A DNA stretch of 64,000 nt, taken from Dictyostelium discoideum. Its lineage: Eukaryota. The DNA lies in the NCBI GenBank assembly GCA_000004695.1, contig CM000153.2, positions 2,560,001-2,624,000 of the forward strand, in the 5' to 3' direction. Shown one piece after another: positions 3,537-53,085 of this stretch. Both the position numbers and the translations under genes were made by a program. A model generated the notes under the pieces. The model saw only the letters and a list, made by a program, of their open reading frames with translations. It was not told where the DNA came from and searched no databases. How positions within the stretch are numbered: position 1 is the stretch's first letter; the number at the start of each line of letters is the position of its first letter.

Positions 3537-3610
3537 GCCTTAGTAGCTCAGTTGGTACGAGCGTGAGACTGAAGATCTTAAGGTCGCTGGTTCGATCCCG
3601 GCCTGAGGCA
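3537..3610 (+). tRNA. tRNA-Phe (anticodon GAA)
   Basis: The cloverleaf folds cleanly. The acceptor stem GCCTTAG pairs with CTGAGGC, the D-arm is GCTC/GAGC, the anticodon stem is TGAGA/TCTTA with loop CTGAAGA (anticodon GAA), the T-arm is GCTGG-TTCGATC-CCGGC (B box GGTTCGATCC), and the discriminator is A. The A box is TAGCTCAGTTGG. Confidence 0.93.
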
Positions 3611-19814: not shown

Positions 19815-22800
19815 TTAATTTGATTCATCATCATTATCAATATTTTGTTTTGATTCACTTGCTTTAACTAAACTATAATAAATTGAATCTTGATTTTTTA
19901 ATAATTCAGAAGGAGAATCATATTCGATTAATTCACCTTTATCTAAAACCATAATTTTATCACTATCAGCGATAGTTCCAAGTCTATGAGCAATTGTTAA
20001 AACTGTACAATCGGCGAATTTAGTACGAATGGTTTCTTGAATTAAAGCATCACTTGCGATATCTATACTTGAGGAAGCTTCATCCAATACGATGATATTT
20101 GCTTTCTTTAAGAGAGCACGACCAATTACCAATAGTTGACGTTGACCAACACTGAAATTATCACCACCATCTTGAACCATAGCATCCAAACCACCATCTA
20201 AATCTTTGATTGCTTTCAAGAGATGAGCATTCTCAATGGCTTCCCAAATTTCATGATCATCATATTGATCGAATGGATCGAGATTGTAACGAACACTACC
20301 GGCGAATAAAACTGGATCTTGTGGAATGATAGCCATACGACTACGAAGTGGATTTAAACCCAACTCGGTGATATCGATGCCATCGATTTCAATGGTACCA
20401 CGTAATGGTTCAACCAAACGGAAGAGTGCTTGAGTTAATGATGATTTACCTGCACCTGTTCTACCAACGATACCAACTTTAGTTTTTGGTTCAATGGTAC
20501 AATTGATACCACGTAACACTGGATCTAATCCTTCACGATAAGTTAACCAAAGATTCTTGAATACTATCTTACCATGTGATGGCCAACTCATTGGTACTGA
20601 TTTATCATTGAACAATGGTGCTTCTGATGGAAGTAAACAATATTCTTGAATTCTTTCAATTGAAACTACACTATTCTCAAGATCACATGACATTCTAACC
20701 ATCCAATTCATATTACCAGTGATTGCCAATGCGTAGGTAATCACTAAACCAGCTGTACCAGCTTCAATTCTTGATCTTGCCAATACTGTATATAACACTG
20801 CGCAACTTACTAAACATGCACCAAGGAATTCCAAACGAATGGCTAACCATCTATTTGAGGAGATATTGATATAGTAACATTTTTGATTCTCATCCAATAG
20901 ACGTTCATTCTCTGTTACAAATCTTGCGACATCCTTGAATGCTCTAATTGTAGTTACACCTGCTAAAGTTTCACTGAAATGAGCATAGATTGGTGATCTA
21001 CTAACACCCTCTAAACGAGTTAATTCTCTTGAGGAATTTAAATAATACTTTTGAATGAAATAAAATAATGCTCCAACTGGCACCATTGCAAGTATAATGA
21101 ATGGTGATACCCATGCAATTACAATGATTGATCCAACCACTTGACAAAATGTATTTAAAAACATACCCAATGTACGTGCAATCGATTCATCAATAGTTAA
21201 TTGATCCTTTGAGAAACGATTTAAAATTCTTCCAATTGGTGTTGTATCAAAGAATGACATTGGTGAAAGAATGACTGCTTTAAACATTTTCTCATGGAAA
21301 AGTTTTGAACCTTTAATTGAACCAAATACCATTGAGAATGAACGTAAAAATGTTGCTGCAATTGTACCACAACTAAATGCCACATAAATACTAAGATAAT
21401 ATTTTGCTTTTTCATTATCTTCAACAGTTGATGATGATGATAAACTAATACTACCACTACCACTACCATTACCATTACCACCATAACTATTTGTCCAAAT
21501 TGATATCCACCAATTTGCTAAAATTGATAACAATTGTGTAAGAACATAGAAACCAATTATACAAGTTGCTAATAATACACCAATAGCTTTGAAATATGAA
21601 AGATATATTTTGAATGAAACTTTACCCTCTTGTTTAGTTTCAACTGAAATGATTTTATTCTTATCTTGTGGTTTAGCATTAACAGTTGTAATTGGTTTTA
21701 ATGAAACACCACTACCACTGTTATTTAATTTCTTATTAATTGAAGTTGGTAATTTCTTTAATAATCTTAATGGTTGTTTTAATACTGATGATTTCTCACC
21801 CTTTTGTAATGGTGTTTGAATATTTTCACCACCATCAATATCAATATCTTCCATTAATTCTCTTTCATCTTGTTCATCTTCTTCTGGTGTTCTAGTAGTT
21901 TGTAAAATACTACCAGATGCAATATCATCACCATCAATATTTCTATTTGATGATGGTGATGGTGATCTTGATCTTGATTTTCTTAAAACTTTTTCTAATA
22001 AATTTTCATTTTCACCTTCCTCTTCTTCATTTTGTTCTTCATTATTTTCACTTTCTTTATTATCGCCACCACCAATTTGTTCATTACTATCAGATGATTT
22101 ATCAGGAGCTTGTTGTTGTTGTAATTGTTGTTGTTGTTCATCATGTGACATTAATTCAGTGAAATGACTACCAGCTTCGATTAAAGTATTGAAATCACCT
22201 TCTTCAACAATTCTACCATCTTTCATTAAAATGATTCTATCGACATATGGTAAATAATGAACAGCATGAGTTACTAATATTCTAGTTTTATTACAAAGTA
22301 TACCATCTTGATTTGAGAGTACATTTTTAAAGATAGCTTTACCAACATGAGCGTCAACTGCTGATAATGGATCATCGAATATATAGATATCAGCATTGTT
22401 ATAGACTGCACGAGCTATTGAAACACGTTGTTTTTGACCACCTGATAAATTGATACCTTTTTCACCGATTTCAGTTTGATCACCACCTGGTAAAATTTTA
22501 ATATCAGGTTCAAGACAACATGCTTGAACCACTGATTGATATTTATCTTGATTTAATTCTTTCGCGAATAGGATATTATTCTTTAAAGTGGCATTTTGAA
22601 TCCAAGCTTGTTGACTAACCAATGCAACTGAACCATTGACAGCAACGGTACCCTTGGTTTTATCTAAATCACCAACTAAACTACTGACAATACTTGATTT
22701 ACCTGAACCAACTTGACCAACGATTGCAACTAATTCACCTTTTTTAATAGTTAAATTTATATCATGAAGTATTGGTTTATTTGGTTCCCATTCCAAGGTT

Positions 22801-24125
22801 GCATTATCGATTTTAACTGCAATACCTGGTTCATTGATATGATGTTCAACAACATTTGGATCTAAATCTTTCTTTAGTAAGAATTTTTGAAGACGTGCAA
22901 CTGAAACCGATGCTTCAATGATTGAACTAACTACACTTGGTAACATATTGATTGGGAATTGCATAACATTGAACAATGATAATGCAGGGAAAGCTTGAGT
23001 TGCTGATAAAACTTGACCTGTTAAAATGTAAACTGTAAAAGTGGAAACACTGACAAACACTGGACTCATTGACCAAAGCAATAATGAAAAACCTTGAATA
23101 TATTTAATAGCTTTCATTACGTCCAATTCTTTATTTCTAATTTCATTTACATGATCCATGAAACTTTGTTCCCAAGAGTAAAGTTTGATCACTTTAATTC
23201 CATTCAATACTTCATTGACTGCTTTAGTACGACGATCTTTTAATTTCATTGATATGGTTTGTCTCTTTTTTGCTAGATTACTAATTGCTAAATTGATTGG
23301 AATCATTACCAACATAATACCTAACCCTGCGAAAACTGATGCATTCAAAATACGATATAGAAGGACCAAAGAGATTGCCAATTGTAATGGTGCTGACCAA
23401 ATCATATGTAGGTATGGACAAAGATCCATAAACTTTTGAGCATCAACCGACATGAGATTAACAATCTCACCAATGGTTGTACCTTCACGTAATGATGTTT
23501 TCAATGCTTTCTTATAGACTGCTGTCACAACTGCTGAACGTAACCACATACCAACTCTATAACAACGATGGAAATATTGATGAAGTAATAATGATTGAAC
23601 CACTGGTGCTAAAAAGTATAACAATGCATAAATTAAACCATCGTATGTATCTTGACTACCATCTCTACTCTCTACAAAACCCAATACCCTTTTCAATAAT
23701 GTTGGACCAACGAAAATCAATAAATCTTGTATAATCTTAAATAATGCTGCAATGTAAAAATGAGGTCCAAATGCTTTTGCTAATGCCCATGGTAATGATG
23801 GATTTGGTTTTTTTAATTGTTCTTCCCATGCTTTTTCAAACTTTTCACTTAACAAAATCGATTGATCAATCTCTCCCAATGTTGGTACATCCGATATCTC
23901 CAATGCCTTCTTATGTCCTTTTACCAATACTGAATTTATCCACCAAAATGTTAATCTTGAGAATAAATTGGCATTAACTTCTTTTGAAATCTCATTCTCT
24001 TCTAAATTTTGATAACTTTCTAAATTGTCAAAGAATAAAACACTTGTAATTGATAATATTAATATTAAACAATATCCAACAAAATATGAAAAATATTCTA
24101 AAAATCCAACATTATAAATTGATTT
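19815..24125 (-). CDS. ABC transporter C-family (ABCC/MRP-type), exon 2: TMD1-NBD1-linker-TMD2-NBD2. The full protein is ~1593 aa.
   Basis: A 1437-codon uninterrupted frame; the ORF table gives a 1370-aa ORF at 19815..23927, and the acceptor ataatag lies at ~24126-24127. Two NBDs are visible, with Walker A motifs GQVGSGKSS and GRTGAGKSS, the signature LSGGQKQR, and Walker B motifs IYIFDDPLSAVD and IIVLDEASSSID. TM blocks precede each NBD. Confidence 0.88.
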   Translation of the reverse strand, partial: KSIYNVGFLEYFSYFVGYCLILILSITSVLFFDNLESYQNLEENEISKEVNANLFSRLTFWWINSVLVKGHKKALEISDVPTLGEIDQSILLSEKFEKAWEEQLKKPNPSLPWALAKAFGPHFYIAALFKIIQDLLIFVGPTLLKRVLGFVESRDGSQDTYDGLIYALLYFLAPVVQSLLLHQYFHRCYRVGMWLRSAVVTAVYKKALKTSLREGTTIGEIVNLMSVDAQKFMDLCPYLHMIWSAPLQLAISLVLLYRILNASVFAGLGIMLVMIPINLAISNLAKKRQTISMKLKDRRTKAVNEVLNGIKVIKLYSWEQSFMDHVNEIRNKELDVMKAIKYIQGFSLLLWSMSPVFVSVSTFTVYILTGQVLSATQAFPALSLFNVMQFPINMLPSVVSSIIEASVSVARLQKFLLKKDLDPNVVEHHINEPGIAVKIDNATLEWEPNKPILHDINLTIKKGELVAIVGQVGSGKSSIVSSLVGDLDKTKGTVAVNGSVALVSQQAWIQNATLKNNILFAKELNQDKYQSVVQACCLEPDIKILPGGDQTEIGEKGINLSGGQKQRVSIARAVYNNADIYIFDDPLSAVDAHVGKAIFKNVLSNQDGILCNKTRILVTHAVHYLPYVDRIILMKDGRIVEEGDFNTLIEAGSHFTELMSHDEQQQQLQQQQAPDKSSDSNEQIGGGDNKESENNEEQNEEEEGENENLLEKVLRKSRSRSPSPSSNRNIDGDDIASGSILQTTRTPEEDEQDERELMEDIDIDGGENIQTPLQKGEKSSVLKQPLRLLKKLPTSINKKLNNSGSGVSLKPITTVNAKPQDKNKIISVETKQEGKVSFKIYLSYFKAIGVLLATCIIGFYVLTQLLSILANWWISIWTNSYGGNGNGSGSGSISLSSSSTVEDNEKAKYYLSIYVAFSCGTIAATFLRSFSMVFGSIKGSKLFHEKMFKAVILSPMSFFDTTPIGRILNRFSKDQLTIDESIARTLGMFLNTFCQVVGSIIVIAWVSPFIILAMVPVGALFYFIQKYYLNSSRELTRLEGVSRSPIYAHFSETLAGVTTIRAFKDVARFVTENERLLDENQKCYYINISSNRWLAIRLEFLGACLVSCAVLYTVLARSRIEAGTAGLVITYALAITGNMNWMVRMSCDLENSVVSIERIQEYCLLPSEAPLFNDKSVPMSWPSHGKIVFKNLWLTYREGLDPVLRGINCTIEPKTKVGIVGRTGAGKSSLTQALFRLVEPLRGTIEIDGIDITELGLNPLRSRMAIIPQDPVLFAGSVRYNLDPFDQYDDHEIWEAIENAHLLKAIKDLDGGLDAMVQDGGDNFSVGQRQLLVIGRALLKKANIIVLDEASSSIDIASDALIQETIRTKFADCTVLTIAHRLGTIADSDKIMVLDKGELIEYDSPSELLKNQDSIYYSLVKASESKQNIDNDDESN

Positions 24126-42140: not shown

Positions 42141-42777
42141 ATTTTTTTATTTTTTTATTTTTTTACTTTTTTAATTTATTTGATTTATTTGATTTAATTT
42201 TGTTTTATTTGATTTAATAATTTTTTTTTTTATTATTTTTTAATAATCTAAGTCAGAAAAAAAAAAAAAGATTTATAATTTTTTTTTAATTTTTTTTATT
42301 TTTTTTTGTTTAGCAAACATAAAAACCTAAAATTAAAAAAAAAATGAATAACGTAAAAAATTTCGGTTTTACAATTTTTTTTATTTTTTTTTTATTTTTT
42401 TTTATTTTTTTTTATTTTTTTATTTTTTTTATTTTTTTGTGAATTGTTTTAAAGAGATTTTGGGCACAAACATAATCAAAAAAAAAAAAATAATCATGAA
42501 TACCTTTTTTTTTTTTATTTTTATTTTTATTTTTATCTTGTGCTTTATTTTCTTATTGAGATAAAATCATACTAATCTTTGTATGATATTATGAGATCAT
42601 TCTGATAAAATAATAATTATTATTATCATAATTAAATTTGAATTTTTACTTGATCTTACTTTCAAAATTTTAAAAATGAAAAAAAAAAAATAAAAAAAAA
42701 AAAAAAATTATTATTAATATTAATAGATATTCTGAAAAAAAAAAAAAAAATAAAAAAAAAAAAAAAAAGTGAAAATC

Positions 42778-42808
<31 letters not shown>

Positions 42809-42881
42809 CTTTTTTTTTTCAAAAAAAAAAAAAAAAAACTTTTTCATTTCATTGTTTTGATTCCAAACAAACAACTAATTT

Positions 42882-42918
<37 letters not shown>

Positions 42919-42995
42919 AAATCGAAATAAAAATAAAAATAAAAATAAAATAAAAATTAAAATTAAAATTATTAAAATAAAATATAATATATAAA

Positions 42996-43007
42996 ATGTT
43001 TTTTCAT
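42996..43007 (+). CDS. rpb7: RNA polymerase II subunit Rpb7, micro-exon 1 (MFFH)
   Basis: ATGTTTTTTCAT followed by a GTAATT donor. The peptide MFFH is identical to the human RPB7 N-terminus. It joins in frame to exon 2 (LTLEKDLHMHPKHCGPNL aligns with ISLEHEILLHPRYFGPNL). Confidence 0.7.
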
Positions 43008-43175
43008 GTAATTTATCAATTTTATTGAATAAAATCTTTCTTTTTTTATTTTTATGTTTTTATTTGTATTTCCTTTTTTTTTTTTTTTTATTAAAGATAT
43101 CTTTAGAGAGATAAAGATAGAGATAGAAAGGCAGAAAATAGAGAAATAATACTAACAATTTTTTATTGTTATTGA

Positions 43176-43273
<98 letters not shown>

Positions 43274-43274
43274 G

Positions 43275-43544
43275 TTAACATTAGAAAAAGATTTACATAT
43301 GCATCCAAAACATTGTGGACCAAATTTATTTACAATTGCAACACAACAACTTTATAGTGAAGTAGAAGGTACATGTACAGGTAGATATGGTTTTATCATT
43401 ACAATTACATCGGTTGATTTCTTATCTAAAGGAAAGGTATTAGAATCATCAGGTTATGTAGTTTTCAATGTTAAATATAAAGCAATCATTTTCAAACCGT
43501 TTAAAGGTGAGGTTTTAGATGCAATCGTTACAAAAGTAACAAAT
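43275..43544 (+). CDS. rpb7: Rpb7, exon 2
   Basis: An aaatag acceptor at 43269-43274. [22 protein letters not shown]...VKYKAIIFKPFKGEVLDAIVTKVTN is a near-colinear match to RPB7 ([23 protein letters not shown]...[25 protein letters not shown]). A GTATGT donor lies at 43545. ORF table 43299..43553. Confidence 0.88.
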
Positions 43545-43690
43545 GTATGTTAGTTACAATCATCATTTACAAAAAGAATGAGTAGTGAATCTATCTCTTT
43601 CTCTCTCTCTCTCTCACTCGCCCTCTTTCTTTTACAATCATATTATAATGATTGGTACTAAATAATATATTTTTTATTTTTAAATTATAG

Positions 43691-43879
43691 CTTGGATTTT
43701 TTGCAGAAGCAGGTCCACTTTCAATTTTTGTATCAACTCAATTGATCCCATCTGATATGATATTCGATGCACAAAGTGCTGTACCATGTTTTGTTTCTGA
43801 AGATGGTTCATCAAAAATCAGTAAAGATGATGAAGTTAGATTACAAATTAAAGGTACTCGTGTTGATGCTACCGAAATT
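43691..43879 (+). CDS. rpb7: Rpb7, exon 3 (S1-like domain)
   Basis: A tatag acceptor. LGFFAEAGPLSIFVSTQLIPSDMIFDAQS...DEVRLQIKGTRVDATEI aligns with [28 protein letters not shown]...DEIRLKIVGTRVDKNDI. A GTATGT donor follows. ORF table 43742..43984. Confidence 0.88.
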
Positions 43880-43984
43880 GTATGTATTTGTGCAGCATAT
43901 ATATATATATATAAACCTTTTTCTCTATTTAATAATTTATTAACTCTTTTTTTTTTTAATTTATTTTTAAATTTTTTTTATTAG

Positions 43985-44032
43985 TTTGCAATTGGTTCAA
44001 TCAGAGAAGATTATTTAGGTGTCATTGGTTAA
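43985..44032 (+). CDS. rpb7: Rpb7, exon 4 (FAIGSIREDYLGVIG*)
   Basis: A ttag acceptor at 43981-43984. It matches the RPB7 C-terminus FAIGSLMDDYLGLVS. Confidence 0.85.
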   Translation, partial: FAIGSIREDYLGVIG

Positions 44033-44243
44033 ATTGGTTTTATATTTTGTGGTTAAATAGTTTTACAGGAATAAAAAAAAAAAAAAAAAAGAACAAAAAA
44101 AAATATAAAAGATAAAAAAAAAAAAAAAAAAATAAAGAAATAAAGAAATTAAGATGTACAAAAAAAAAAAAAAACCTAAACAGAATCCCATTTAACAAAT
44201 TTTTTTTTTTAATAAACAAAAAAGAAATATTCTTTTATTACCA

Positions 44244-44359
<116 letters not shown>

Positions 44360-44438
44360 TTAATTGTTTAATTATTTATTTATATTATAATATTAATATA
44401 CATTTTCAAAGGTCATTAAGATTGAATTTAGAGAAAAG

Positions 44439-44538
44439 TTAAAAATCGTCAGCAGAGTCGATTTCAAAATCAATATCATTTTCTCTTAGTTCAGTGAAAT
44501 CAACTCTTGAATTGAATGTACTCTTTTTAAGTTTTTGT
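44439..44538 (-). CDS. 4-TM membrane protein, possible terminal exon (RQKLKKSTFNSRVDFTELRENDIDFEIDSADDF*)
   Basis: A ttttag acceptor at 44539-44540. It keeps frame for 33 codons, giving a charged cytoplasmic tail. Confidence 0.35.
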
Positions 44539-44641
44539 CTAAAATAATAATGATGATGAATGGTAAAGTAGTGGTTAGTAATTGATTTAAAAAAAAATTG
44601 TAAATACAATTAATTAATAAAAAAAAAAAAAAAAAATTTAC

Positions 44642-44928
44642 CTATTAATTAAAGCTATTAATCTTAGGAATTGGAAAAAGTATCTAATAGCAGTTAAGAA
44701 AATAATGACCACACCTTCATAGTCATAATTGTCAGAGCTTGATGAATGAAAATATAAAAATAAACCGCATATAGAAATTACCAAAACAAAAAGATCGAAT
44801 CTATTTGCCCATGTTTGAAAGTACTTTTTCTTTTGTGATATAATTTGTAATATAATTTCAACTGATAATGTAACATTAACCAAAATATCTAGTACTATAA
44901 AAATCCAATGTGATGGTACCGATGTATT
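44642..44928 (-). CDS. 4-TM membrane protein, exon 2 (TM2-TM4: ...HWIFIVLDILVNVTLSVEIIL..WANRFDLFVLVISICGLFL..VVIIFLTAIRYFFQFLRLIALIN)
   Basis: An aaaaag acceptor at ~44929-44930. It is in frame with ORF-table 44638..44883. The sequence AGGTAAAT at 44638-44645 is either a stop (R*) or a donor. Confidence 0.5.
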
Positions 44929-45009
44929 CTTTTTTATTAAATTTGTAATTAACTTTTTATTTTTAAAATTGTTTAAAAAAAAAAAAAGTTAGTAGGATAA
45001 AAAAAAAAA

Positions 45010-45106
<97 letters not shown>

Positions 45107-45150
45107 TTAATAATAATATTAATAATAATAATAAATTTAAAATAAATTAC

Positions 45151-45819
45151 CCAAATAATTAAAATTAAATTTAATAATATCATAACAATATATGAATAAT
45201 AATATTTATTTGAAAATAAAACTCTATCAGCATATGTAGAGCATTGCCTATCATGTACCATATAATTATCAAAATTTGATTCGAAATGACTTGTAGAATG
45301 TCCATAATTAGCAGAAAGTGGTGGGAGATCCGATAAATTACCTTCACTACCCATACTATTAGTTAATATAGAATTATTATTATTTCCATTAATGTTGCCA
45401 TTATTATTATTATTATTATTATTATTTCCTAAATTTTTATCGCTTATACTAAATGAGTTATTAATATTATTATTGTTATTATTATTATTGTTTAATTTAT
45501 CATTCGGGTTCAAAGAATTATTGCCCCCATTATTAATATTATTATTATTACCATTATTATTATTATTATTATTATTATTCACTCGTATACTATTTGGTGT
45601 ATTTTGATTACCATTATTGATATTATTATTTCCATTTATATTAATTAAATTATTTGCATTTCCGCTATTATTTCCTATACTAGTATTACTATTTAGTGAA
45701 GTCATATTTGGTGAAAGACCACTTGGAGATAAACGATTACCACTTCTAATAATGTTTAGATTTGATTTACTACCTATTATATCACTACTATCAAGATCCT
45801 TAAAATTACTATCACTCAT
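45151..45819 (-). CDS. 4-TM membrane protein with an Asn/Gly-rich N-terminal low-complexity region, exon 1
   Basis: ORF table 44989..45819. It ends ...NKYYYSYIVMILLNLILIIW with a GTAATT donor at 45149-45150. Confidence 0.5.
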
Positions 45820-45885
45820 CCAATTATTTAATTTATTATAATTTTTTTAATTTTTATTATTATTTATTATTTTTATTTATTACTA

Positions 45886-45974
<89 letters not shown>

Positions 45975-48631
45975 TATTATTATTTATAATTTACACACAA
46001 AATTATTAAAAATAAAAATAAAAAAAAAAAAAAATAAAAAATATTAAACACTTGGGTTTTTATTTTTTTTTTTTATTTTTTTCATTTTTTTTTTATTTTT
46101 TTTATTTTTTTTATTATTTTTATAAAAAAAGTCTTTTCACTATTCCCAAATTCCATTTTTTTTTTTTTTTTTTTTTAACACCAAAATGAAAAATAATATA
46201 ATTTTTTAAAAATATATTTTTTTTTTTTGTTTGGGAATAAAATTTTTAATTAACAATAAAGATAAATTTAATTTAATTAATAAATAAAATTGGTTTACAT
46301 TTTTTTTTTTATTTTATTTTATTTTTTTTTTATTTTCTTTAGAAATAAATTTTTTTTTTTTTTTTTTAAAAATAATAATAAAGATAAATTTAATTTAATT
46401 AATAAATAAAATCTATTGCTTCTTTTTTTTTCTTTTTTTTTTTTTTTTTTTTTAAAATTTTTTATTTTATATATTTTTAAAAATTTAAATTTAGATTACT
46501 TTTGTCAGATATATAAATTAAAATAATAGAATTGTTAGATATAAAAATTTAAAAATTCATTTACACAAAAGTGATACTTTTACAAAAATAAAACGATTTA
46601 CATAAATAGTTTTGGTAATTTACATTTTCCTTACTAATCAAAGAGTATTCATTTATTGATTACTTCACATATATATATTGTTGTGTCAACCAATACAATA
46701 ATGTACATTCACACAATAAATACACCGCACCACTCACATCATCTCTCTCTCTCACTAAAATGACAATATCAAAATTATGTTTATTACTGCAGTATAATCT
46801 GGCCATCTTAATTTTACACTTTTTGATTTATTTTATTCTTCAACTATTTCGTTATCCAAATTTAATTATTAAAATAATTTATTCATTTTAATATGACAAG
46901 ATATCAAGCCTAACCCTTAAAATAACAATTTTTTTTTTTGTTTTTTATTTATTATATCTTTCCATTTAATTTTATTATTTTTAAATATTTTAATTTTAAT
47001 ATGGTAAAATTTAATTTTCACAAACACACACCCAAATTAAACACATCTAAACACACACACACACAAATAACACACCAATAAAACTCTCCCCATTTTAAGA
47101 ATTCAAAGGGACACCACCCACAAACACACAAACAACACATTTTTCTCACAGATATGTTGTTTTAGTTTAGGATATCTCTTTAATATTCAGATATATAAAA
47201 TTATTTTAATATAAGAGGGTACCATATATATATATATATATTGCTTAAATATGTTGTGTTTTTAATTTTATTATTTTAAAATTTTTTATTATACCTCTTT
47301 TTATTAACCCACAAAATAATATAAATGTATGTGGATTATCAGTTTTAGTTTAAAAGATTACAGTGAAAATTAAATTCCAATTCAAATATCAAATGAAATA
47401 TTATAATTATCTATAGATATAAGCTAAAATTTTAGTTGTGTGTGTGTGTGAGCATTTGTTTTTTTTGTGTGTATTTAATATAACTAAATAAATTTATTTA
47501 TGATAATAATTATAATTTTAATTTAATATAATAAAATATCATTATCATTATTTTAAAAACACTTACTAAATAAATAAATAAAAATTATTTCAAATTTTTA
47601 TAATAATTTAATTCATCGACGAATATGCAATCTTTTTAACTGGGATATATATGGAATTATTTTTAATAATGTGTGATATATATAAAATAATAATAATAAT
47701 AATCAATAAAAAAAAAGGGGGGGTAAATAATAATTATATATATTATAATGAATATACTTTATTTTATTTTTTTTTATGTATAAAATATTTTTTAATATAT
47801 AATATATAGGTATTGTTATTATATATATATATTTTTTGACTGTTGTTGTTGTTATTAGTTTTTGGTTGTTGTTATTAATTTTTCAAATAAATCGAATTGA
47901 AATAAAATTCGGACCACCATCACCACACTATTTTGATTTATTTAAATATTTCAATTTTTATTTTTTGGGATAAATTGAACCCCCTTCCACATTTAAATTG
48001 CCCCGGATAAAATCGTACAATATTCTATCCATGTTTTTTGTTAATTAACAAGTGCCCTGTATGCTACCATCAATTAATTTATCTGTCAATAATAAGTTTA
48101 TTGTTGGTATAGATTAAAAAACAATAACAAATTTAAATAAATTATTTTGAAAATAATAAAACATTTTAAATAAAAAAATAAAATAAAATTATAAAAAATA
48201 TTAATAATAATAATTAAAAAAAAAAAAAAAAACTATAAATAAACTTTTTTTTTATTTCATTATTTTAAAATAATAAATAATAATTAATAATAATAATAAT
48301 AAAATAAAAATAATAATAAAAATAATAATAATAAAATAATAGTAAAACACATAACAACACACACATTTTACTTTTTTTTATTGAGATTTTTTTTTTTGAT
48401 TACTATTTTTAATAATAATAATATTTTAAGAAATAGAAAAAATATAAAAAAAAAAAAATATTAAAAAAAACAACATCAATAATAAATTAAATAAATTAAA
48501 TAAATTAATATTTTATTAAATAATCTAAATCAAAATAATTACTAAATACATACACACATATATATTTATATATATAAAATTATTATTTTTTAATTAATTT
48601 AAATAATTAATTATTTGAAGAAAAAAAAAAA

Positions 48632-50914
48632 ATGAAAATAAGTTTTAAAAATTTAATTTTTATTTCATTTTTAATAATAAAAGTTTCATCATATGGTGAA
48701 CCAAATTTAAGAGGTAATCCAAATTGGTTTGAAAGAAGTAATCATGTATTAGTTAATTCAGTTAGAATTGCACCAAAGGAATACCAAAATAGATATACAC
48801 AATTTGGAAATCAAGATGTATTATCTCCATCAATTTATCCATCAGTGCCACCATTATTCTTTGAATTTTCATTAGGAGCATCAGCATTGGCTCATGCAAG
48901 AGATATGTCAATAAACAATTGTTTTTCACATGAATCATGTGATGGAACAGATTCCGATACCAGAATCAATGAATACTATCATTGTGATGAAATCCATGGT
49001 GAAAACATTGCAGCAGGTTATGATTCACCATTGATCACCAATAATCAATGGGTTTGTGATGATGGCACCAATGACCCATACTCAAATCCAACATGTGCTC
49101 AAGATGCTTCAGGTTCCGATGGTCATAGAGCAAATATTATGAATCCAAATTTCAAGGCAATAGGTGTTGGTTTCTCTTTTACCTCTGATAGCACCTACCA
49201 TTCCTACTGGACTCAAGATTTTGGCGCTCAACCATGTTTTAACATTACCAATCAACCAATTCATTCGGGTTCTCATTTATTCTTAAATCAAAACAAATTA
49301 ACTTTTATGGTCGATTGGTATGATCAAGTTGAACCAACCGTTGCTTACGTTGTAATTAGTGGTAAACCTAATAAATTGAATTTAGAAATGGGTTCAAAAT
49401 CAAAAGGTATTTATAGTTTATCAGTCCCAATCGAGAATCAAAAATCAAATGATGATGATAATAAAAAATCAAAAACTCAACAGGCTTCTGATTTTGCAAA
49501 GAAATTATTACATTTAGATTCCTGTAGAGATTATTATTTCTATTTTGAAAAATCAATCATTACAAATACAACAAATTCAACAGTTCAAGTAACTGATAAA
49601 GGTAATGTCACACTCACTTCCTATTCATTTTCAAAATCAACTGAAATCTTTAGATATCCACATTTTGGTTATTTAACTACTTTTGGTGAAGGTAATTGTA
49701 AAAGATCTTATTCAATCAATGGTACTGAATATAATCCTTATAATAATTTTAATTCTACAACTGGAATGCATTCTTCAACTTCATCTTGGTCATCAACTTC
49801 TTCAACTTCTTCGTGGTCTTCAACTTCTTCAACTTCATCATGGTCTTCAACTTCTTCAACCTCTTCATCTCCTTCTACTGTTCCACCAACAAATAATAAT
49901 GGTGGAAATAGTAATAATTCTGAACAACCATCTTCAACAACAACAACTACTACTACATCTTCTACAATAGGTACAACAATGGAACCAACAACTTCAACAA
50001 CAACATCAACAACAACTTCTACAACTATTGAACCAACTACATCATCAACAACAACATCAACAACAACTTCTACAACTGGATCATCATCATCATCATTATC
50101 ATCATCATCATCAGATAAATTTGATTCATTTGAATCATCAATTGAAATATTTAATAGTAACCATAAATTTATTGGATGCTTCAATGATGATATTTCTCAT
50201 GATTTACCATTTAATGAAATTTTTTCAATAAATATGACAAATGATAAATGTGAATCTTATTGTACAAAGAATGGATATAAATATGCTGGAACAGAGTTAG
50301 GAACACAATGCTATTGTGGTAATTCATATGGTCACTATGGTAAAGCTAATAAAGAATCTGATTGTAATTTTAAATGTGGTGGTGATAAATCTAAAATCTG
50401 TGGTGGTAATGATAAAATCTCTGTTTATAAAACAAGTTATAATGGTTGTTTCTCATATGAACCATTGATTGGTCATTTCTCAATCTCTGCAAGTAGTCCA
50501 AATATGACAGTTGAGGGATGTAGAGCTCATTGTTTTAAAAATCATTATTTAATTGCTGGTTTATCACGTGGTAATCTTTGTTTCTGTGGAAATGATACAA
50601 TTTTTGAGCAACAACCACAAACCGAAAATCCCTCAAGACCAAAATCAATTCCAACTTGTAATTCCAAATGTACAGGTTCAAATAAAGAAAATTGTGGTGG
50701 TGTAAATGAAATTTCAATCTATTCAACTGAAAATATTTCAAATCTTTTGGTACCTGATAATTTAAAGGATACATCTTCTTTATTAAATCAAAATCAACAA
50801 CAACAACAACAAGAACAAGAACAAGAACAAAATAATTCACAACCATTATTATTAATATCATTAAAATCATATATATTAATAATAATAATAACAATATTTG
50901 TATCATTAATTTAG
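48632..50914 (+). CDS. Secreted CAP/SCP (PR-1-like) domain protein with a Ser/Thr-rich mucin-like repeat region, two WSC domains and a hydrophobic C-terminus (likely GPI anchor); single exon
   Basis: ORF table, 760 aa. There is a signal peptide MKISFKNLIFISFLIIKVSS. The CAP motifs are HARDMS..CFSHES and GHRANIMNPNFKAIGVGF...YWTQDFG. SSWSSTSSTSSW repeats and T/S-rich blocks follow. The WSC-like Cys patterns are CESYCTKNGYKYAGTELGTQCYCGNSYG...CNFKCGGDKSKICGG and CRAHCFKNHYLIAGLSRGNLCFCGND...CNSKCTGSNKENCGG. The C-terminus is LLLISLKSYILIIIITIFVSLI. Confidence 0.8.
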   Translation: MKISFKNLIFISFLIIKVSSYGEPNLRGNPNWFERSNHVLVNSVRIAPKEYQNRYTQFGNQDVLSPSIYPSVPPLFFEFSLGASALAHARDMSINNCFSHESCDGTDSDTRINEYYHCDEIHGENIAAGYDSPLITNNQWVCDDGTNDPYSNPTCAQDASGSDGHRANIMNPNFKAIGVGFSFTSDSTYHSYWTQDFGAQPCFNITNQPIHSGSHLFLNQNKLTFMVDWYDQVEPTVAYVVISGKPNKLNLEMGSKSKGIYSLSVPIENQKSNDDDNKKSKTQQASDFAKKLLHLDSCRDYYFYFEKSIITNTTNSTVQVTDKGNVTLTSYSFSKSTEIFRYPHFGYLTTFGEGNCKRSYSINGTEYNPYNNFNSTTGMHSSTSSWSSTSSTSSWSSTSSTSSWSSTSSTSSSPSTVPPTNNNGGNSNNSEQPSSTTTTTTTSSTIGTTMEPTTSTTTSTTTSTTIEPTTSSTTTSTTTSTTGSSSSSLSSSSSDKFDSFESSIEIFNSNHKFIGCFNDDISHDLPFNEIFSINMTNDKCESYCTKNGYKYAGTELGTQCYCGNSYGHYGKANKESDCNFKCGGDKSKICGGNDKISVYKTSYNGCFSYEPLIGHFSISASSPNMTVEGCRAHCFKNHYLIAGLSRGNLCFCGNDTIFEQQPQTENPSRPKSIPTCNSKCTGSNKENCGGVNEISIYSTENISNLLVPDNLKDTSSLLNQNQQQQQQEQEQEQNNSQPLLLISLKSYILIIIITIFVSLI

Positions 50915-51032
50915 AAAATATAAAAACATTTAAATGTTTGTAATAATAAAATAAAAATTGTAATATTATATATAATATATTTAATGGTTTAAATTATTTA
51001 TTTTTTTTTTATTTTTTATTATTTTTTTTTTT

Positions 51033-52603
51033 CTAACCTAATTTTTTCATTTGATCTTTAATTAATTTTTCAGGATTAATTATATGTAATCTTATTAAAA
51101 TTGATAAAATTCTATTAACAAAATAATAGTATAATTCATAACCTTTTAACATTACTTCTAATGATACTTTCTCTTCAACACTTTTTACTAATCTAATGAT
51201 ACCACTATTTTTTGAAGAATTACTATTTAAACCTTTGGCAGCATAACGAGCCATAATTGAAAATCTATTAACTGGACTACCAAGTTCCATATTGATTGAT
51301 CTTAAAAGGTTATTATTTCTTAAGATTAATAGTAAATGTCTTGGCATTGCTTTCATTAAGAGATTGATATCTTTAAGTCTTTCAATTGCACCTGATAATA
51401 GTTTCTCCAATTCTTCTGATGATATTGAATTTGATAAACCAACTGAAGAACCTTCGAAATTACGCATTAGAATCATTGTTGAGAAAAGTTTCCAATTTTG
51501 TACACCCAATGCTTTACTATATTTTTCAACTTTTTTATTGTTACACAATACTAAATTCTTGTAGAGGTTACAGAAATTCAATCTAAATTCTTCATCGTAC
51601 TCTCTATATAGGCCATGATCCAATAATACTATTTGTGGTTGATTTGGGTGGTTTGGATGTTGTCTAACTAAAACGTTACCAGCATGAGGATCCACATGAA
51701 CAAAGGCATGTATGAAAATTTGTTCACACATAATCTCCATGAATCTTTGAGAGACAGTTTTCTCACTTAAACCCATTGATCTTATGGCTTGAACATTATT
51801 GATTTTACAACCATGAATAAACTCTGTCGTTAGAATTCTCTTTGAAGAATAGGGTCTAAACACTTTTGGAATGTAGGCATTGTTATTTGAAGAGAGATCT
51901 TGAGCGGCACGTTCAGCATTATCAGCCTCTTGAGAGAAATCCAACTCTTTTATTAAAACATTTTTCATTTCCTCAGCCATCCAATTGAATTCAAAATCTG
52001 GGAATGCCATATTGACCAAAGTCAACAAAACATTGTGAGTGAAAATGTCACCATCGAAATTTCTCTGTAAATCTACATATTGCACTTTGACAGCAACCTC
52101 TTCACCCTCCTTTGTAATTGCTCTATGAACTTGTGCTAATGATGCAGCTGCAATTGGTAATCTATCGAAATCAGAGAAATAATGGTTTGGTGCGTTACCT
52201 AAATCCTTTAAGAAAACACTTTCAACTTCGTAGAAATCACGCCATGGTGCTTGATCTTGTAATACTGAGAGTGTTTTAGTATATTGAATTGGTAAGATAT
52301 GATTTAAACTTGCAATATATTGACCTGCTTTAATATATAGTCCACCATTGGTTAAACATAAATCCAATATTAAATCAGCAGATTCTTGATGACATATCTT
52401 TGATTTCTCTAAATATTCCGATGACTTTTCTGGTGTATATGAAAGAATCTTATAATTTATCATAATTTTAGTTGCACATTTCATTGCTCTATAAAATCTA
52501 ACAATAACATTCATCATTGATCCAAAATAACTATCTGGTGTTTCATATGAATAAATTATTAATGCAATTGCTGCTAAAATACTTGCTATAGTTTTCTTAT
52601 AAT
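51033..52603 (-). CDS. ADCK1-like ABC1/UbiB-family atypical kinase, exon 2 (kinase-like domain)
   Basis: ORF table 51033..52517, extended upstream in frame to a ttag acceptor after the (ATAA)n microsatellite. It is colinear with human ADCK1: AAASLAQVHRA...VAVKVQ aligns with GTASLAQVHKA...VAVKVQ, HAFVHVDPHAGNVLVRQHP aligns with NGFVHCDPHPGNVLVRKHP, VLLDHGLYREYDEEFRLNFC aligns with VLLDHGLYQMLTEEFRLNYC, and LLILRNNNLLRSI aligns with LLILKTNDLLRGI. Confidence 0.85.
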
Positions 52604-52606
52604 CTA

Positions 52607-52607
52607 A

Positions 52608-52685
<78 letters not shown>
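52607..52685. repeat. (ATAA)n microsatellite within the ADCK intron
   Basis: aaataaataaataaat... about 20 units. Confidence 0.9.
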
Positions 52686-52687
<2 letters not shown>

Positions 52688-52752
52688 ATGTTAATAATTA
52701 ATAAAAGTTTTTTTTTTTTTTAAAAAAAATAAAAAAAAATGATTTAACTTAC

Positions 52753-52851
52753 TTTTTGCAAATCTTTGTAATACATTTAAAAACTCTTGTGGTGTAATTA
52801 CAGTTTTTTTTAAAATATCTCTTAATCTATCTTTACTTGTTTTTTTTTTTG

Positions 52852-52915
<64 letters not shown>

Positions 52916-53085
52916 TGATGATGGTGGTTTAGCTTGACATGGTTGTGGTTTGGTAGTTGTGAATGAATTTAGATTATATTTATTTGAAAGTGAAGAAAAG
53001 AATTGAATTGAAGATGGTTTTATTTTATTTTCCATAACATTTTTAAAATTATTATTTATATAATATACATTATTTATTTTATTTA

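What the first reader, a model, noticed from the sequence alone, without database searches (positions are those of the whole stretch)
48632..50914. Unusual domain combination: CAP/PR-1 domain + mucin-like S/T repeats + two WSC domains + predicted GPI anchor
CAP (PR-1/SCP) domains are typically stand-alone secreted modules. WSC domains are carbohydrate-binding cell-wall stress sensors best known in fungi. A fusion of both on a GPI-anchored mucin-like stalk suggests a cell-surface or matrix (slime sheath or spore coat) protein that couples glycan binding with a sterol/lipid-binding CAP module. The S/T region contains imperfect SSWSSTSSTSSW and T(S)TTSTTT repeats that are likely O-glycosylated.
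Basis: partly seen in the sequence, partly recalled or inferred. Interest (0 to 1): 0.5.

Follow-up and report, generated by a model that had tools for sequence, protein, structure and literature searches.

The report
Dictyostelid surface glycoprotein: CAP, Ig-like, WSC
This is a real, conserved slime-mould gene for a probably lipid-anchored, sugar-coated cell-surface protein that joins a bacterial-type CAP domain to two WSC domains, a combination found here only in dictyostelids; its function has not been studied.

Summary
Window 48632-50914 (+) is one intron-less 760-aa ORF. Pfam gives CAP (E 3e-15) and two WSC domains (E 1e-35). A 130-aa stretch is 70% Ser/Thr and is built on 27-bp and about 50-bp tandem repeats. 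The only hydrophobic segments are an N-terminal signal peptide and the extreme C-terminus, which looks like a GPI signal.

- The CAP domain is the bacterial YkwD-like subtype. Its closest structures are 4ifa and BB0689, and it has no caveolin-binding motif.
- CAP is followed by a conserved Ig-like beta-sandwich with no Pfam model (AF2 pLDDT 88). Together they form one module that also occurs in bacteria, Physarum and other protists.
- The WSC pair lies between the mucin stalk and the membrane, so only the CAP/Ig head sits on top of the stalk.

Among the proteins examined, CAP plus WSC occurred only in dictyostelids. That covers the listed hits of an exhaustive HMMER scan of 1.84 billion representatives. 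Orthologs are syntenic and under purifying selection (dN/dS 0.17 overall, 0.04 in CAP).

The protein is not a Wsc1-type sensor because it has no cytoplasmic tail. Sterol binding is unsupported. Yeast Pry3 and Dictyostelium PsA/csA are architectural precedents. I rate it a lineage-specific variant of a known kind, of modest interest.

The parts
48632..50914 (+). Complete single-exon coding sequence (760 aa plus stop)
   Evidence: ORF list. Orthologous single-exon genes in syntenic loci L003 and L004. dN/dS 0.167 against D. dimigraforme.
48632..48691 (+). Signal peptide, aa 1-20 (MKISFKNLIFISFLIIKVSS | YGEP)
   Evidence: Hydrophobic segment aa 8-22. V at -3 and S at -1. The mature N-terminus YGE is invariant in homologs. 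Heuristic only; no SignalP was run.
48692..49231 (+). CAP domain of the bacterial YkwD-like subtype, aa 21-200. H88, H100, E124 and H165 are conserved.
   Evidence: Pfam PF00188 at 57.5 bits. AF2 pLDDT 87.6. Foldseek best hits are 4ifa and 4d53, then Pry1 and GAPR-1. The A3 profile hits only 4ifa by sequence, E 8e-16. TIGR02909 YkwD scores 49.7 bits, below its cut-off. Residue conservation is 20-21 of 21 sequences. dN/dS 0.038.
49232..49747 (+). Ig-like beta-sandwich domain with no Pfam model, aa 201-372. It forms one module with CAP. The D. discoideum lineage has insertions at about aa 267-297 and 308-338.
49757..50146 (+). Mucin-like Ser/Thr-rich stalk, aa 376-505 (70% S+T)
   Evidence: Composition. 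Length varies between strains.
49771..49868 (+). 27-bp tandem repeat x3.6 encoding SSTSSTSSW
   Evidence: TRF, 90% matches, score 154.
49938..50077 (+). 48-51-bp tandem repeat x2-2.8 encoding T-rich units (TTMEPTTSTTTSTTTS)
   Evidence: TRF, 80-89% matches.
50165..50437 (+). WSC domain 1, aa 512-602. Cys at 516, 540, 544, 560, 562, 578, 582, 590; CGG at 590.
   Evidence: Pfam PF01822. Kremen1 WSC at E 1e-9 and yeast Wsc1 CRD 7pz2 at E 3e-6. Cys and CGG positions. dN/dS 0.12.
50438..50731 (+). WSC domain 2, aa 603-700. Cys at 606, 630, 634, 650, 652, 676, 680, 688; CGG at 688.
   Evidence: Second Pfam WSC stretch. Own WSC HMMs. Cys and CGG positions. dN/dS 0.29.
50732..50830 (+). Short polar Q/E-rich linker, aa 701-733
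   Evidence: Sequence. CAA/GAA repeat at 50795-50830. Length varies between strains.
50831..50911 (+). Putative GPI-attachment signal, aa 734-760: small residues N-N-S (candidate omega site), a spacer, then a hydrophobic tail running to the last residue
   Evidence: Mean Kyte-Doolittle value of the last 14 aa is 3.09, and no residues follow the tail. The same pattern recurs with unrelated sequence in at least 11 orthologs and paralogs. Inferred, not tested.

Best explanation
The gene encodes a secreted-pathway, heavily glycosylated cell-surface protein of Dictyostelium, most likely held in the outer leaflet of the plasma membrane by a GPI anchor.

Reading outward from the membrane:
- a short polar linker;
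- two tandem WSC (PAN/Apple-fold, 4-disulfide) domains;
- an O-glycosylated Ser/Thr stalk of about 130 residues;
- at the tip, a rigid two-domain head: a bacterial-type (YkwD-like) CAP domain packed against an Ig-like beta-sandwich.

Proposed mechanism (inferred). The membrane-proximal WSC pair binds a polysaccharide or glycoprotein of the pericellular matrix. Cellulose or another beta-glucan is the obvious candidate in an organism that lays down cellulose at the plasma membrane. The stalk holds the CAP/Ig head away from the membrane. The head's conserved His/Glu/His cleft engages a still unknown ligand. The protein would then act as an adhesion or matrix-organising tether rather than a signalling receptor, because it has no cytoplasmic part.

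Shown: the domain content, their order, conservation, purifying selection and the restriction to dictyostelids. Inferred: GPI anchoring, O-glycosylation, the ligands and the biological role.
For: Domains: Pfam CAP and 2xWSC are well above their cut-offs. WSC matches Kremen1 and the Wsc1 CRD. Each WSC has 8 Cys and a CGG motif.

Topology: there are only two hydrophobic segments, at the N-terminus and the extreme C-terminus. A GPI-signal-like C-terminus is maintained across orthologs and paralogs although its sequence drifts. There are 12 N-glycosylation sequons and a 70% S/T stalk.

Real, functional gene: single-exon syntenic orthologs. dN/dS is 0.038 in CAP, 0.12 in WSC1 and 0.167 overall. Orthologs with the same architecture occur in Dictyostelium, Polysphondylium violaceum, Tieghemostelium, Heterostelium and Cavenderia.

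Putative CAP cleft residues H88, H100, E124 and H165 are conserved in 20-21 of 21 sequences.

Precedents: Pry3 is ss-CAP-S/T-GPI (PMC7340583). Dictyostelium csA takes a lipid anchor through a 25-aa C-terminal signal (PMC2119896).
Against: No GPI or signal-peptide predictor was run and no experiment exists. The spacer after the candidate omega site (QPLLLISLKS) is more hydrophobic than in textbook GPI signals. The Heterostelium model P0004 lacks the hydrophobic tail; it may be a truncated gene model.

Carbohydrate binding by WSC is not universal. The Wsc1 CRD structure shows no evident glycan pocket, and Kremen WSC takes part in protein-protein contacts (PMC9024836).

The ligand of bacterial-type CAP domains is unknown. 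BB0689 bound none of the lipids tested.

No expression, localisation or mutant data were found in the searchable literature, so the matrix-tether role is conjecture.
Confidence: 0.5

Rival explanations
1. It is a matrix component rather than a resident membrane protein. The GPI signal serves only as a transient anchor or sorting device. The protein is then released or cross-linked into the slime sheath, stalk tube or spore coat, as yeast GPI cell-wall proteins such as Pry3 are, with the WSC pair fixing it to cellulose.
For: Pry3 is a GPI-signal CAP protein that ends up in the cell wall (PMC7340583). WSC domains are common in fungal wall and glycan-active proteins such as GH71, glyoxal oxidase and peroxidase fusions. 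In Physarum-type relatives the same CAP/Ig head is joined through an S/T linker to a different C-terminal domain with no hydrophobic tail, which makes them soluble or matrix proteins.
Against: No transglycosylation pathway from GPI to wall is known in Dictyostelium (own knowledge). The GPI-like tail is conserved in WSC-less paralogs too. No proteomic evidence was found.
Confidence: 0.2
2. It is a recognition or adhesion receptor for prey or other microbes on feeding amoebae. The WSC domains would bind beta-glucan of yeasts and fungi, and the CAP/Ig head would bind a microbial surface component.
For: WSC lectins that bind fungal beta-glucan are described in the fungal literature retrieved (PMC9252488 and related papers; I did not read them in detail). 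The CAP/Ig module is shared with bacterial secreted proteins that carry T9SS tails or GC-type dockerins. That is compatible with an origin and role at the microbe interface.
Against: There is no cytoplasmic domain to trigger uptake. No expression data place it in vegetative cells. The evidence is purely by analogy.
Confidence: 0.12
3. It is a sterol- or lipid-binding CAP protein. The CAP head would sequester or export sterols or fatty acids, like yeast Pry1, and the rest of the protein would merely localise it.
For: It belongs to the CAP superfamily. Pry1 and GAPR-1 are among the Foldseek hits. Lipid binding is documented for Pry1-type CAP domains (PMC7340583).
Against: By sequence the domain matches only bacterial-type CAP (4ifa, the YkwD model). 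Neither caveolin-binding motif consensus is present in aa 21-200. BB0689 bound no cholesterol, fatty acids or phosphatidylinositol (PMC11784157). Pry3's own cell-surface function did not depend on lipid binding (section heading in PMC7340583).
Confidence: 0.08
4. It is a Wsc1-like mechanosensor that signals wall or matrix stress into the cell.
For: It has WSC domains plus an S/T-rich region, the two extracellular hallmarks of fungal Wsc sensors (PMC9024836).
Against: There is no transmembrane helix followed by a cytoplasmic tail; the protein ends inside the hydrophobic segment. The domain order is also inverted: WSC sits next to the membrane, not at the tip of the S/T spring.
Confidence: 0.03

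Closest known systems
Saccharomyces cerevisiae Pry3 (GPI-anchored cell-wall CAP protein)
   Same: Signal peptide, N-terminal CAP domain, long Ser/Thr-rich region downstream, C-terminal GPI-attachment signal. The CAP function depends on conserved residues of the putative metal site and on being tethered at the surface (PMC7340583).
   Different: Pry3 has a eukaryotic PR-1-type CAP with a caveolin-binding motif, no Ig-like domain and no WSC domains. This CAP is the bacterial YkwD-like subtype. The two are analogous architectures, not orthologs.
Fungal Wsc1-3 cell-wall integrity sensors
   Same: WSC (PAN/Apple-fold, 8-Cys, CGG) domain combined with a heavily O-glycosylated S/T region on a surface protein (PMC9024836).
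   Different: Wsc sensors have one distal WSC, then the S/T spring, then a transmembrane helix and a signalling cytoplasmic tail. This protein has two WSC domains that are membrane-proximal, no cytoplasmic tail and a CAP/Ig head.
Bacterial YkwD-like CAP proteins (B. anthracis 4ifa; Borrelia BB0689, 4d53) and uncharacterised bacterial CAP + beta-sandwich proteins
   Same: Closest CAP domain by sequence and structure. Bacterial-context proteins P0079-P0084, P0148 and P0186 share the whole CAP + Ig-like module at about 32-33% identity over about 95% of its length.
   Different: The bacterial proteins are anchored or exported through T9SS tails, GC-type dockerins or lipoprotein signals. They lack the mucin stalk, WSC domains and GPI signal. 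TIGR02909 scores below its cut-off (49.7 against 171 bits), so this is not a YkwD-subfamily member.
Dictyostelium PsA and contact site A (csA/gp80)
   Same: Dictyostelium surface glycoproteins with a globular head, an O-glycosylated spacer and a lipid anchor specified by a short C-terminal signal. The PsA spacer repeats vary in length between strains (references and abstract in PMC2119896), as this S/T region does.
   Different: The globular domains are unrelated; neither has CAP or WSC. The comparison with PsA rests partly on my own knowledge of that literature.
Kremen1/2 (vertebrate Dkk co-receptors)
   Same: Best solved-structure match for WSC domain 1 (E 1e-9).
   Different: Kremen is Kringle-WSC-CUB-TM with a single WSC that acts in protein-protein recognition. 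It shares no other domain with this protein.

Membership tests
CAP/SCP/PR-1 superfamily (Pfam PF00188) | Significant match to the family HMM above the gathering score | tested here: met
   57.5 bits against a cut-off of 21.1, aa 72-197.
CAP/SCP/PR-1 superfamily (Pfam PF00188) | Alpha-beta-alpha sandwich fold | tested here: met
   AF2 pLDDT 87.6. Foldseek hits 4ifa, 4d53, Pry1, GAPR-1, natrin and Na-ASP with probability 1.00.
CAP/SCP/PR-1 superfamily (Pfam PF00188) | Conserved His/Glu cleft residues (the putative metal-binding tetrad) | tested here: inconclusive
   H88, H100, E124 and H165 are conserved in 20-21 of 21 homologs. The mapping onto the canonical tetrad (GENI = CAP4, GHR = CAP1) was made by motif inspection only. 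The fourth acidic residue (D143 or D163) is uncertain, and model coordinates could not be inspected.
Sterol-binding Pry1-type CAP proteins | Caveolin-binding motif (phi-X-phi-XXXX-phi or phi-XXXX-phi-XX-phi) in the CAP domain | tested here: not met
   A regex search over aa 21-200 found no match to either consensus.
Bacterial YkwD family (NCBIfam TIGR02909) | Score above the curated cut-off | tested here: not met
   49.7 bits against a cut-off of 171, E 3e-13. It is related to this subfamily but is not a member.
WSC domain (Pfam PF01822) | HMM match above the gathering score; eight conserved Cys; CGG motif | tested here: met
   122.3 bits against 27.8, two stretches. There are 8 Cys per domain, with CGG at 590 and 688. 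These hallmarks are as described in PMC9024836.
Fungal Wsc-type cell-wall integrity sensors | Single-pass transmembrane helix followed by a cytoplasmic signalling tail | tested here: not met
   The only C-terminal hydrophobic segment runs to the last residue, so there is no cytoplasmic tail.
GPI-anchored proteins | N-terminal signal peptide, plus a C-terminal signal made of small omega-site residues, a spacer and a terminal hydrophobic stretch | tested here: inconclusive
   The heuristic pattern is present (N734-N735-S736, spacer, 14-aa tail with KD 3.09) and recurs in at least 11 homologs. No dedicated predictor (big-PI, NetGPI) was available.
GPI-anchored proteins | Release by PI-PLC or chemical detection of the anchor | not testable with these tools
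   This needs an experiment.
Mucin-like O-glycoproteins | Ser/Thr(/Pro)-rich tandem-repeat region that is actually O-glycosylated | tested here: inconclusive
   Composition (70% S+T) and tandem repeats are shown. The glycosylation itself cannot be tested here.
Dictyostelium ecmA/ecmB and spore-coat protein families | Cys-rich Dictyostelium repeat domains recognised by Pfam | tested here: not met
   A Pfam scan at E<=1 returned only WSC and CAP.
Kremen family | Kringle + WSC + CUB + TM architecture | tested here: not met
   Only the WSC part matches.

The most novel reading that the evidence does not exclude
The protein is a dictyostelid invention. It would have been made by fusing a CAP/Ig-like module of bacterial type (possibly acquired by an amoebozoan ancestor through horizontal transfer) to a fungal-like WSC pair. 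It would work as a dedicated link between the plasma membrane and the cellulose-containing extracellular matrix that makes dictyostelid multicellular structures (sheath, stalk, spore coat) possible. The CAP/Ig head would have a previously unrecognised, non-lipid ligand or metal-dependent activity common to a large uncharacterised bacterial and protist family.
Probability: 0.15. Interest if true: 0.55.

Novelty: new variant of a known kind. Interest (0 to 1): 0.3.

Why it matters
If the model is right, the gene gives a tractable handle on two poorly understood domain families in a genetically easy organism. No ligand was detected for BB0689 among those tested (PMC11784157), and I found no functional study of the other bacterial-type CAP relatives. 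What WSC domains bind is debated even for yeast Wsc1. The gene would also add a candidate membrane-matrix linker to Dictyostelium development. The conserved but unmodelled Ig-like domain that always follows this CAP subtype is a useful annotation gap to fill. At present none of this goes beyond a lineage-specific reshuffling of known extracellular modules. Orthologs are already deposited as 'WSC domain-containing protein', and the search collection's precomputed Pfam hits list both families for them.

Tried and rejected
(1) Gene-specific hypervariability, as in allorecognition genes. dS against a 'D. discoideum' strain was about 0.1. However, the whole 8-kb locus is only about 92% identical, so the divergence is genome-wide and I dropped the idea.

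(2) P0096 first looked like a possible extra CAP+WSC protein in the exhaustive search. Domain HMMs showed it has WSC only.

(3) Weak prion-protein hits of the A3 profile (E 0.05-0.1) come from a chance 'YRYP' plus T-rich match and are noise.

(6) Literature searches for a Dictyostelium WSC or CAP protein found nothing relevant.

(7) No paralog lies in the window (tblastn).

(8) The antisense ORFs inside the gene (49738-50184, 50535-50906 and others) are by-products of low-complexity coding sequence.

(9) The exact protein is not in the 15-billion-sequence collection. The nearest are strain variants at 93-98% identity.
Full report
OBSERVATION. Window 48632-50914 (+) is a single uninterrupted ORF of 760 codons. 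It starts at an ATG preceded by a run of A, in a window with about 14-33% G+C. Pfam-A finds two families. WSC (PF01822) scores 122.3 bits against a cut-off of 27.8 in two stretches. CAP (PF00188) scores 57.5 bits against 21.1 at aa 72-197. By sequence, WSC domain 1 matches the WSC domains of human Kremen1 (E 1e-9) and the yeast Wsc1 CRD chain 7pz2 (E 3e-6). The CAP region matches only a Bacillus anthracis SCP-domain protein, 4ifa. Each WSC domain has eight cysteines and the CGG motif, which are the WSC hallmarks described in PMC9024836. Residues 376-505 are 70% Ser+Thr. They are encoded by a 27-bp repeat x3.6 (SSTSSTSSW) and a 48-51-bp repeat x2-2.8. Only two stretches are hydrophobic: aa 8-22 and aa 738-760, the latter running to the last residue.

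The CAP half is closest to bacterial CAP proteins. Foldseek ranks 4ifa and Borrelia BB0689 (4d53) ahead of Pry1 and GAPR-1. A profile of the module finds only 4ifa among all PDB sequences (E 8e-16). NCBIfam's YkwD model is the best hit but falls below its cut-off (49.7 against 171 bits).

CAP and the beta-sandwich form one evolutionary unit. A search with aa 21-375 recovers proteins that cover about 95% of it at 32-51% identity. These include Physarum (P0075) and other protist sequences, and proteins with bacterial features. P0084 and P0186 have T9SS sorting tails, P0083 has He_PIG/Big_9, P0079 has a GC-type dockerin, P0175 has CarboxypepD_reg repeats, and P0148 comes from a Chitinivibrionales MAG. 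Two of the encoding contigs have typical prokaryotic gene content. In the 232 proteins gathered, the beta-sandwich never occurs without CAP.

HOW UNUSUAL IS CAP+WSC? I ran an exhaustive HMMER search with a profile of six orthologs against 1.84 billion representative proteins. Only P0001, P0003, P0004, P0005 and P0094 matched in both halves. P0094 is from Polysphondylium violaceum. With domain-specific HMMs over all 232 fetched proteins, CAP and WSC co-occur only in nine dictyostelid sequences, counting the window's own. A further 69 proteins have CAP without WSC (60 of them with the beta-sandwich), and 155 have WSC without CAP. I had briefly flagged P0096 as a possible extra case, but it has WSC only. 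The architecture is thus found in Dictyostelium, Polysphondylium violaceum, Tieghemostelium, Heterostelium and Cavenderia, which by my own knowledge of dictyostelid taxonomy span the four major groups, and nowhere else that I could see. One caveat applies. Only the best 150 of 20,530 hits were inspected, and a protein combining a eukaryotic-type CAP with WSC would not necessarily rank there.

Dictyostelids also have WSC-less paralogs (P0006, P0017, P0021, P0029, P0228) with the layout CAP - Ig-like - S/T - hydrophobic end. The Physarum-type proteins replace WSC and the tail with a different, unannotated C-terminal domain of about 130 aa.

IS IT A WORKING GENE? The D. dimigraforme and D. discoideum-strain orthologs are single-exon genes in the same neighbourhood, with Rpb7 upstream and a convergent gene downstream. 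Nei-Gojobori dN/dS against D. dimigraforme is 0.167 overall. By region it is 0.038 in CAP, 0.19 in the Ig-like domain, 0.20 in the stalk, 0.12 in WSC1 and 0.29 in WSC2. The CAP head is the most constrained part. H88, H100, E124 and H165 are conserved in 20-21 of 21 bacterial and amoebozoan sequences. By motif comparison (GENI = CAP4, GHR = CAP1) these correspond to the putative metal-binding cleft of CAP proteins; this mapping is my inference. The S/T stalk and the Q/E linker vary in length between strains.

TOPOLOGY AND MECHANISM. The signal peptide ends at VSS|YGE, and YGE is invariant at the start of the mature protein in homologs. The C-terminus consists of a polar Q/E linker, N-N-S, a spacer, and then 14 strongly hydrophobic residues with nothing after them. 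The same pattern, with unrelated sequence, is kept in at least 11 orthologs and paralogs. This is the layout of a GPI-attachment signal. Dictyostelium csA receives its lipid anchor through a comparable 25-residue C-terminal signal (PMC2119896).

I therefore read the protein as a GPI-anchored, heavily N- and O-glycosylated surface glycoprotein. From the membrane outward the order is: linker, WSC, WSC, mucin stalk, Ig-like domain, CAP. The most economical mechanism is a tether. The membrane-proximal WSC pair would bind a pericellular polysaccharide or glycoprotein, while the stalk presents the conserved CAP/Ig head. The ligands and the biological role are inferred, not shown.

AGAINST THE STEROL IDEA. 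The domain is not the Pry1/PR-1 subtype, and neither caveolin-binding motif consensus is present. [quoted passage not shown]

AGAINST A Wsc1-LIKE SENSOR. There is no cytoplasmic tail, and the domain order is inverted relative to Wsc1. The Wsc1 CRD structure shows no obvious glycan pocket, and Kremen's WSC mediates protein contacts. Carbohydrate binding by this WSC pair is therefore plausible but unproven.

COMPARISON AND NOVELTY. The closest known architecture for the CAP part is yeast Pry3: signal sequence, CAP, long S/T region and GPI anchor. Its surface function depends on the conserved putative metal site and not on lipid binding (PMC7340583). Dictyostelium PsA and csA are local precedents for a globular head on a glycosylated spacer with a lipid anchor. 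PsA also shows repeat-number polymorphism (references in PMC2119896).

The new points here are the addition of two WSC domains, the bacterial-type CAP with its obligate Ig-like partner, and the restriction of the fusion to dictyostelids. The orthologs are already in public databases as 'WSC domain-containing protein', and the search collection's precomputed Pfam hits list both families for them. I found no paper describing them. I rate this a new variant of a known kind (modular GPI/mucin surface glycoproteins), real and well supported, but of modest interest until a ligand or phenotype is known.

Noticed in passing
window 49232-49747 (aa 201-372); also P0075-P0084, P0148, P0186: An Ig-like beta-sandwich domain with no Pfam model always follows this YkwD-like CAP subtype. 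The two form a module found in bacteria (T9SS, GC-dockerin and CarboxypepD_reg fusions), Physarum and other protists. The distribution could reflect horizontal transfer between bacteria and Amoebozoa.
   Followed up: partly
P0075, P0076, P0078 (Physarum-type relatives), C-terminal ~130 aa: The same CAP/Ig head and S/T linker are joined to a different C-terminal domain (GGYYIYSS...YTLYLSGIELV) with no Pfam hit and no hydrophobic tail. It may be another binding module that replaces WSC plus the GPI signal.
   Followed up: partly
window 49757-50146 and 50795-50830: The S/T stalk and the Q/E linker differ in length between Dictyostelium strains (749, 751, 757 and 760 aa) through repeat gain and loss. 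This recalls the repeat-number polymorphism reported for PsA.
   Followed up: partly
P0005 (Cavenderia fasciculata, 1310 aa) and P0004 (Heterostelium album, 599 aa): P0005 carries about 350 extra N-terminal residues and a C-terminal ion-transport (PF00520) region around the CAP-WSC core, and part of its Ig-like domain is missing. It is probably a merged or mis-spliced gene model. P0004 ends without the hydrophobic tail and is probably a truncated model.
   Followed up: no
window 51033-52517 (-): The convergent downstream neighbour has a 494-aa ORF. From reading its translation it resembles an ABC1/ADCK-type atypical kinase. The orthologous gene models in L003 and L004 are longer (705-747 aa), so it probably has introns. 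No domain search was run on it.
   Followed up: no
window 42423-52960 compared with L004: The window is only about 87-92% identical in nucleotides to a genome labelled D. discoideum (GCA_054859355.1) across about 10 kb. Synonymous divergence in this gene is about 0.1. The window and that strain are therefore clearly diverged lineages despite sharing a species name.
   Followed up: partly
window 3537-3610 (+): A tRNA-Phe (GAA) gene is the only tRNA ARAGORN found in the window.
   Followed up: no
window 19815-23927 (-): A long 1370-aa ORF lies in the most G+C-rich part of the window (about 33% against about 20% elsewhere). I did not examine it.
   Followed up: no
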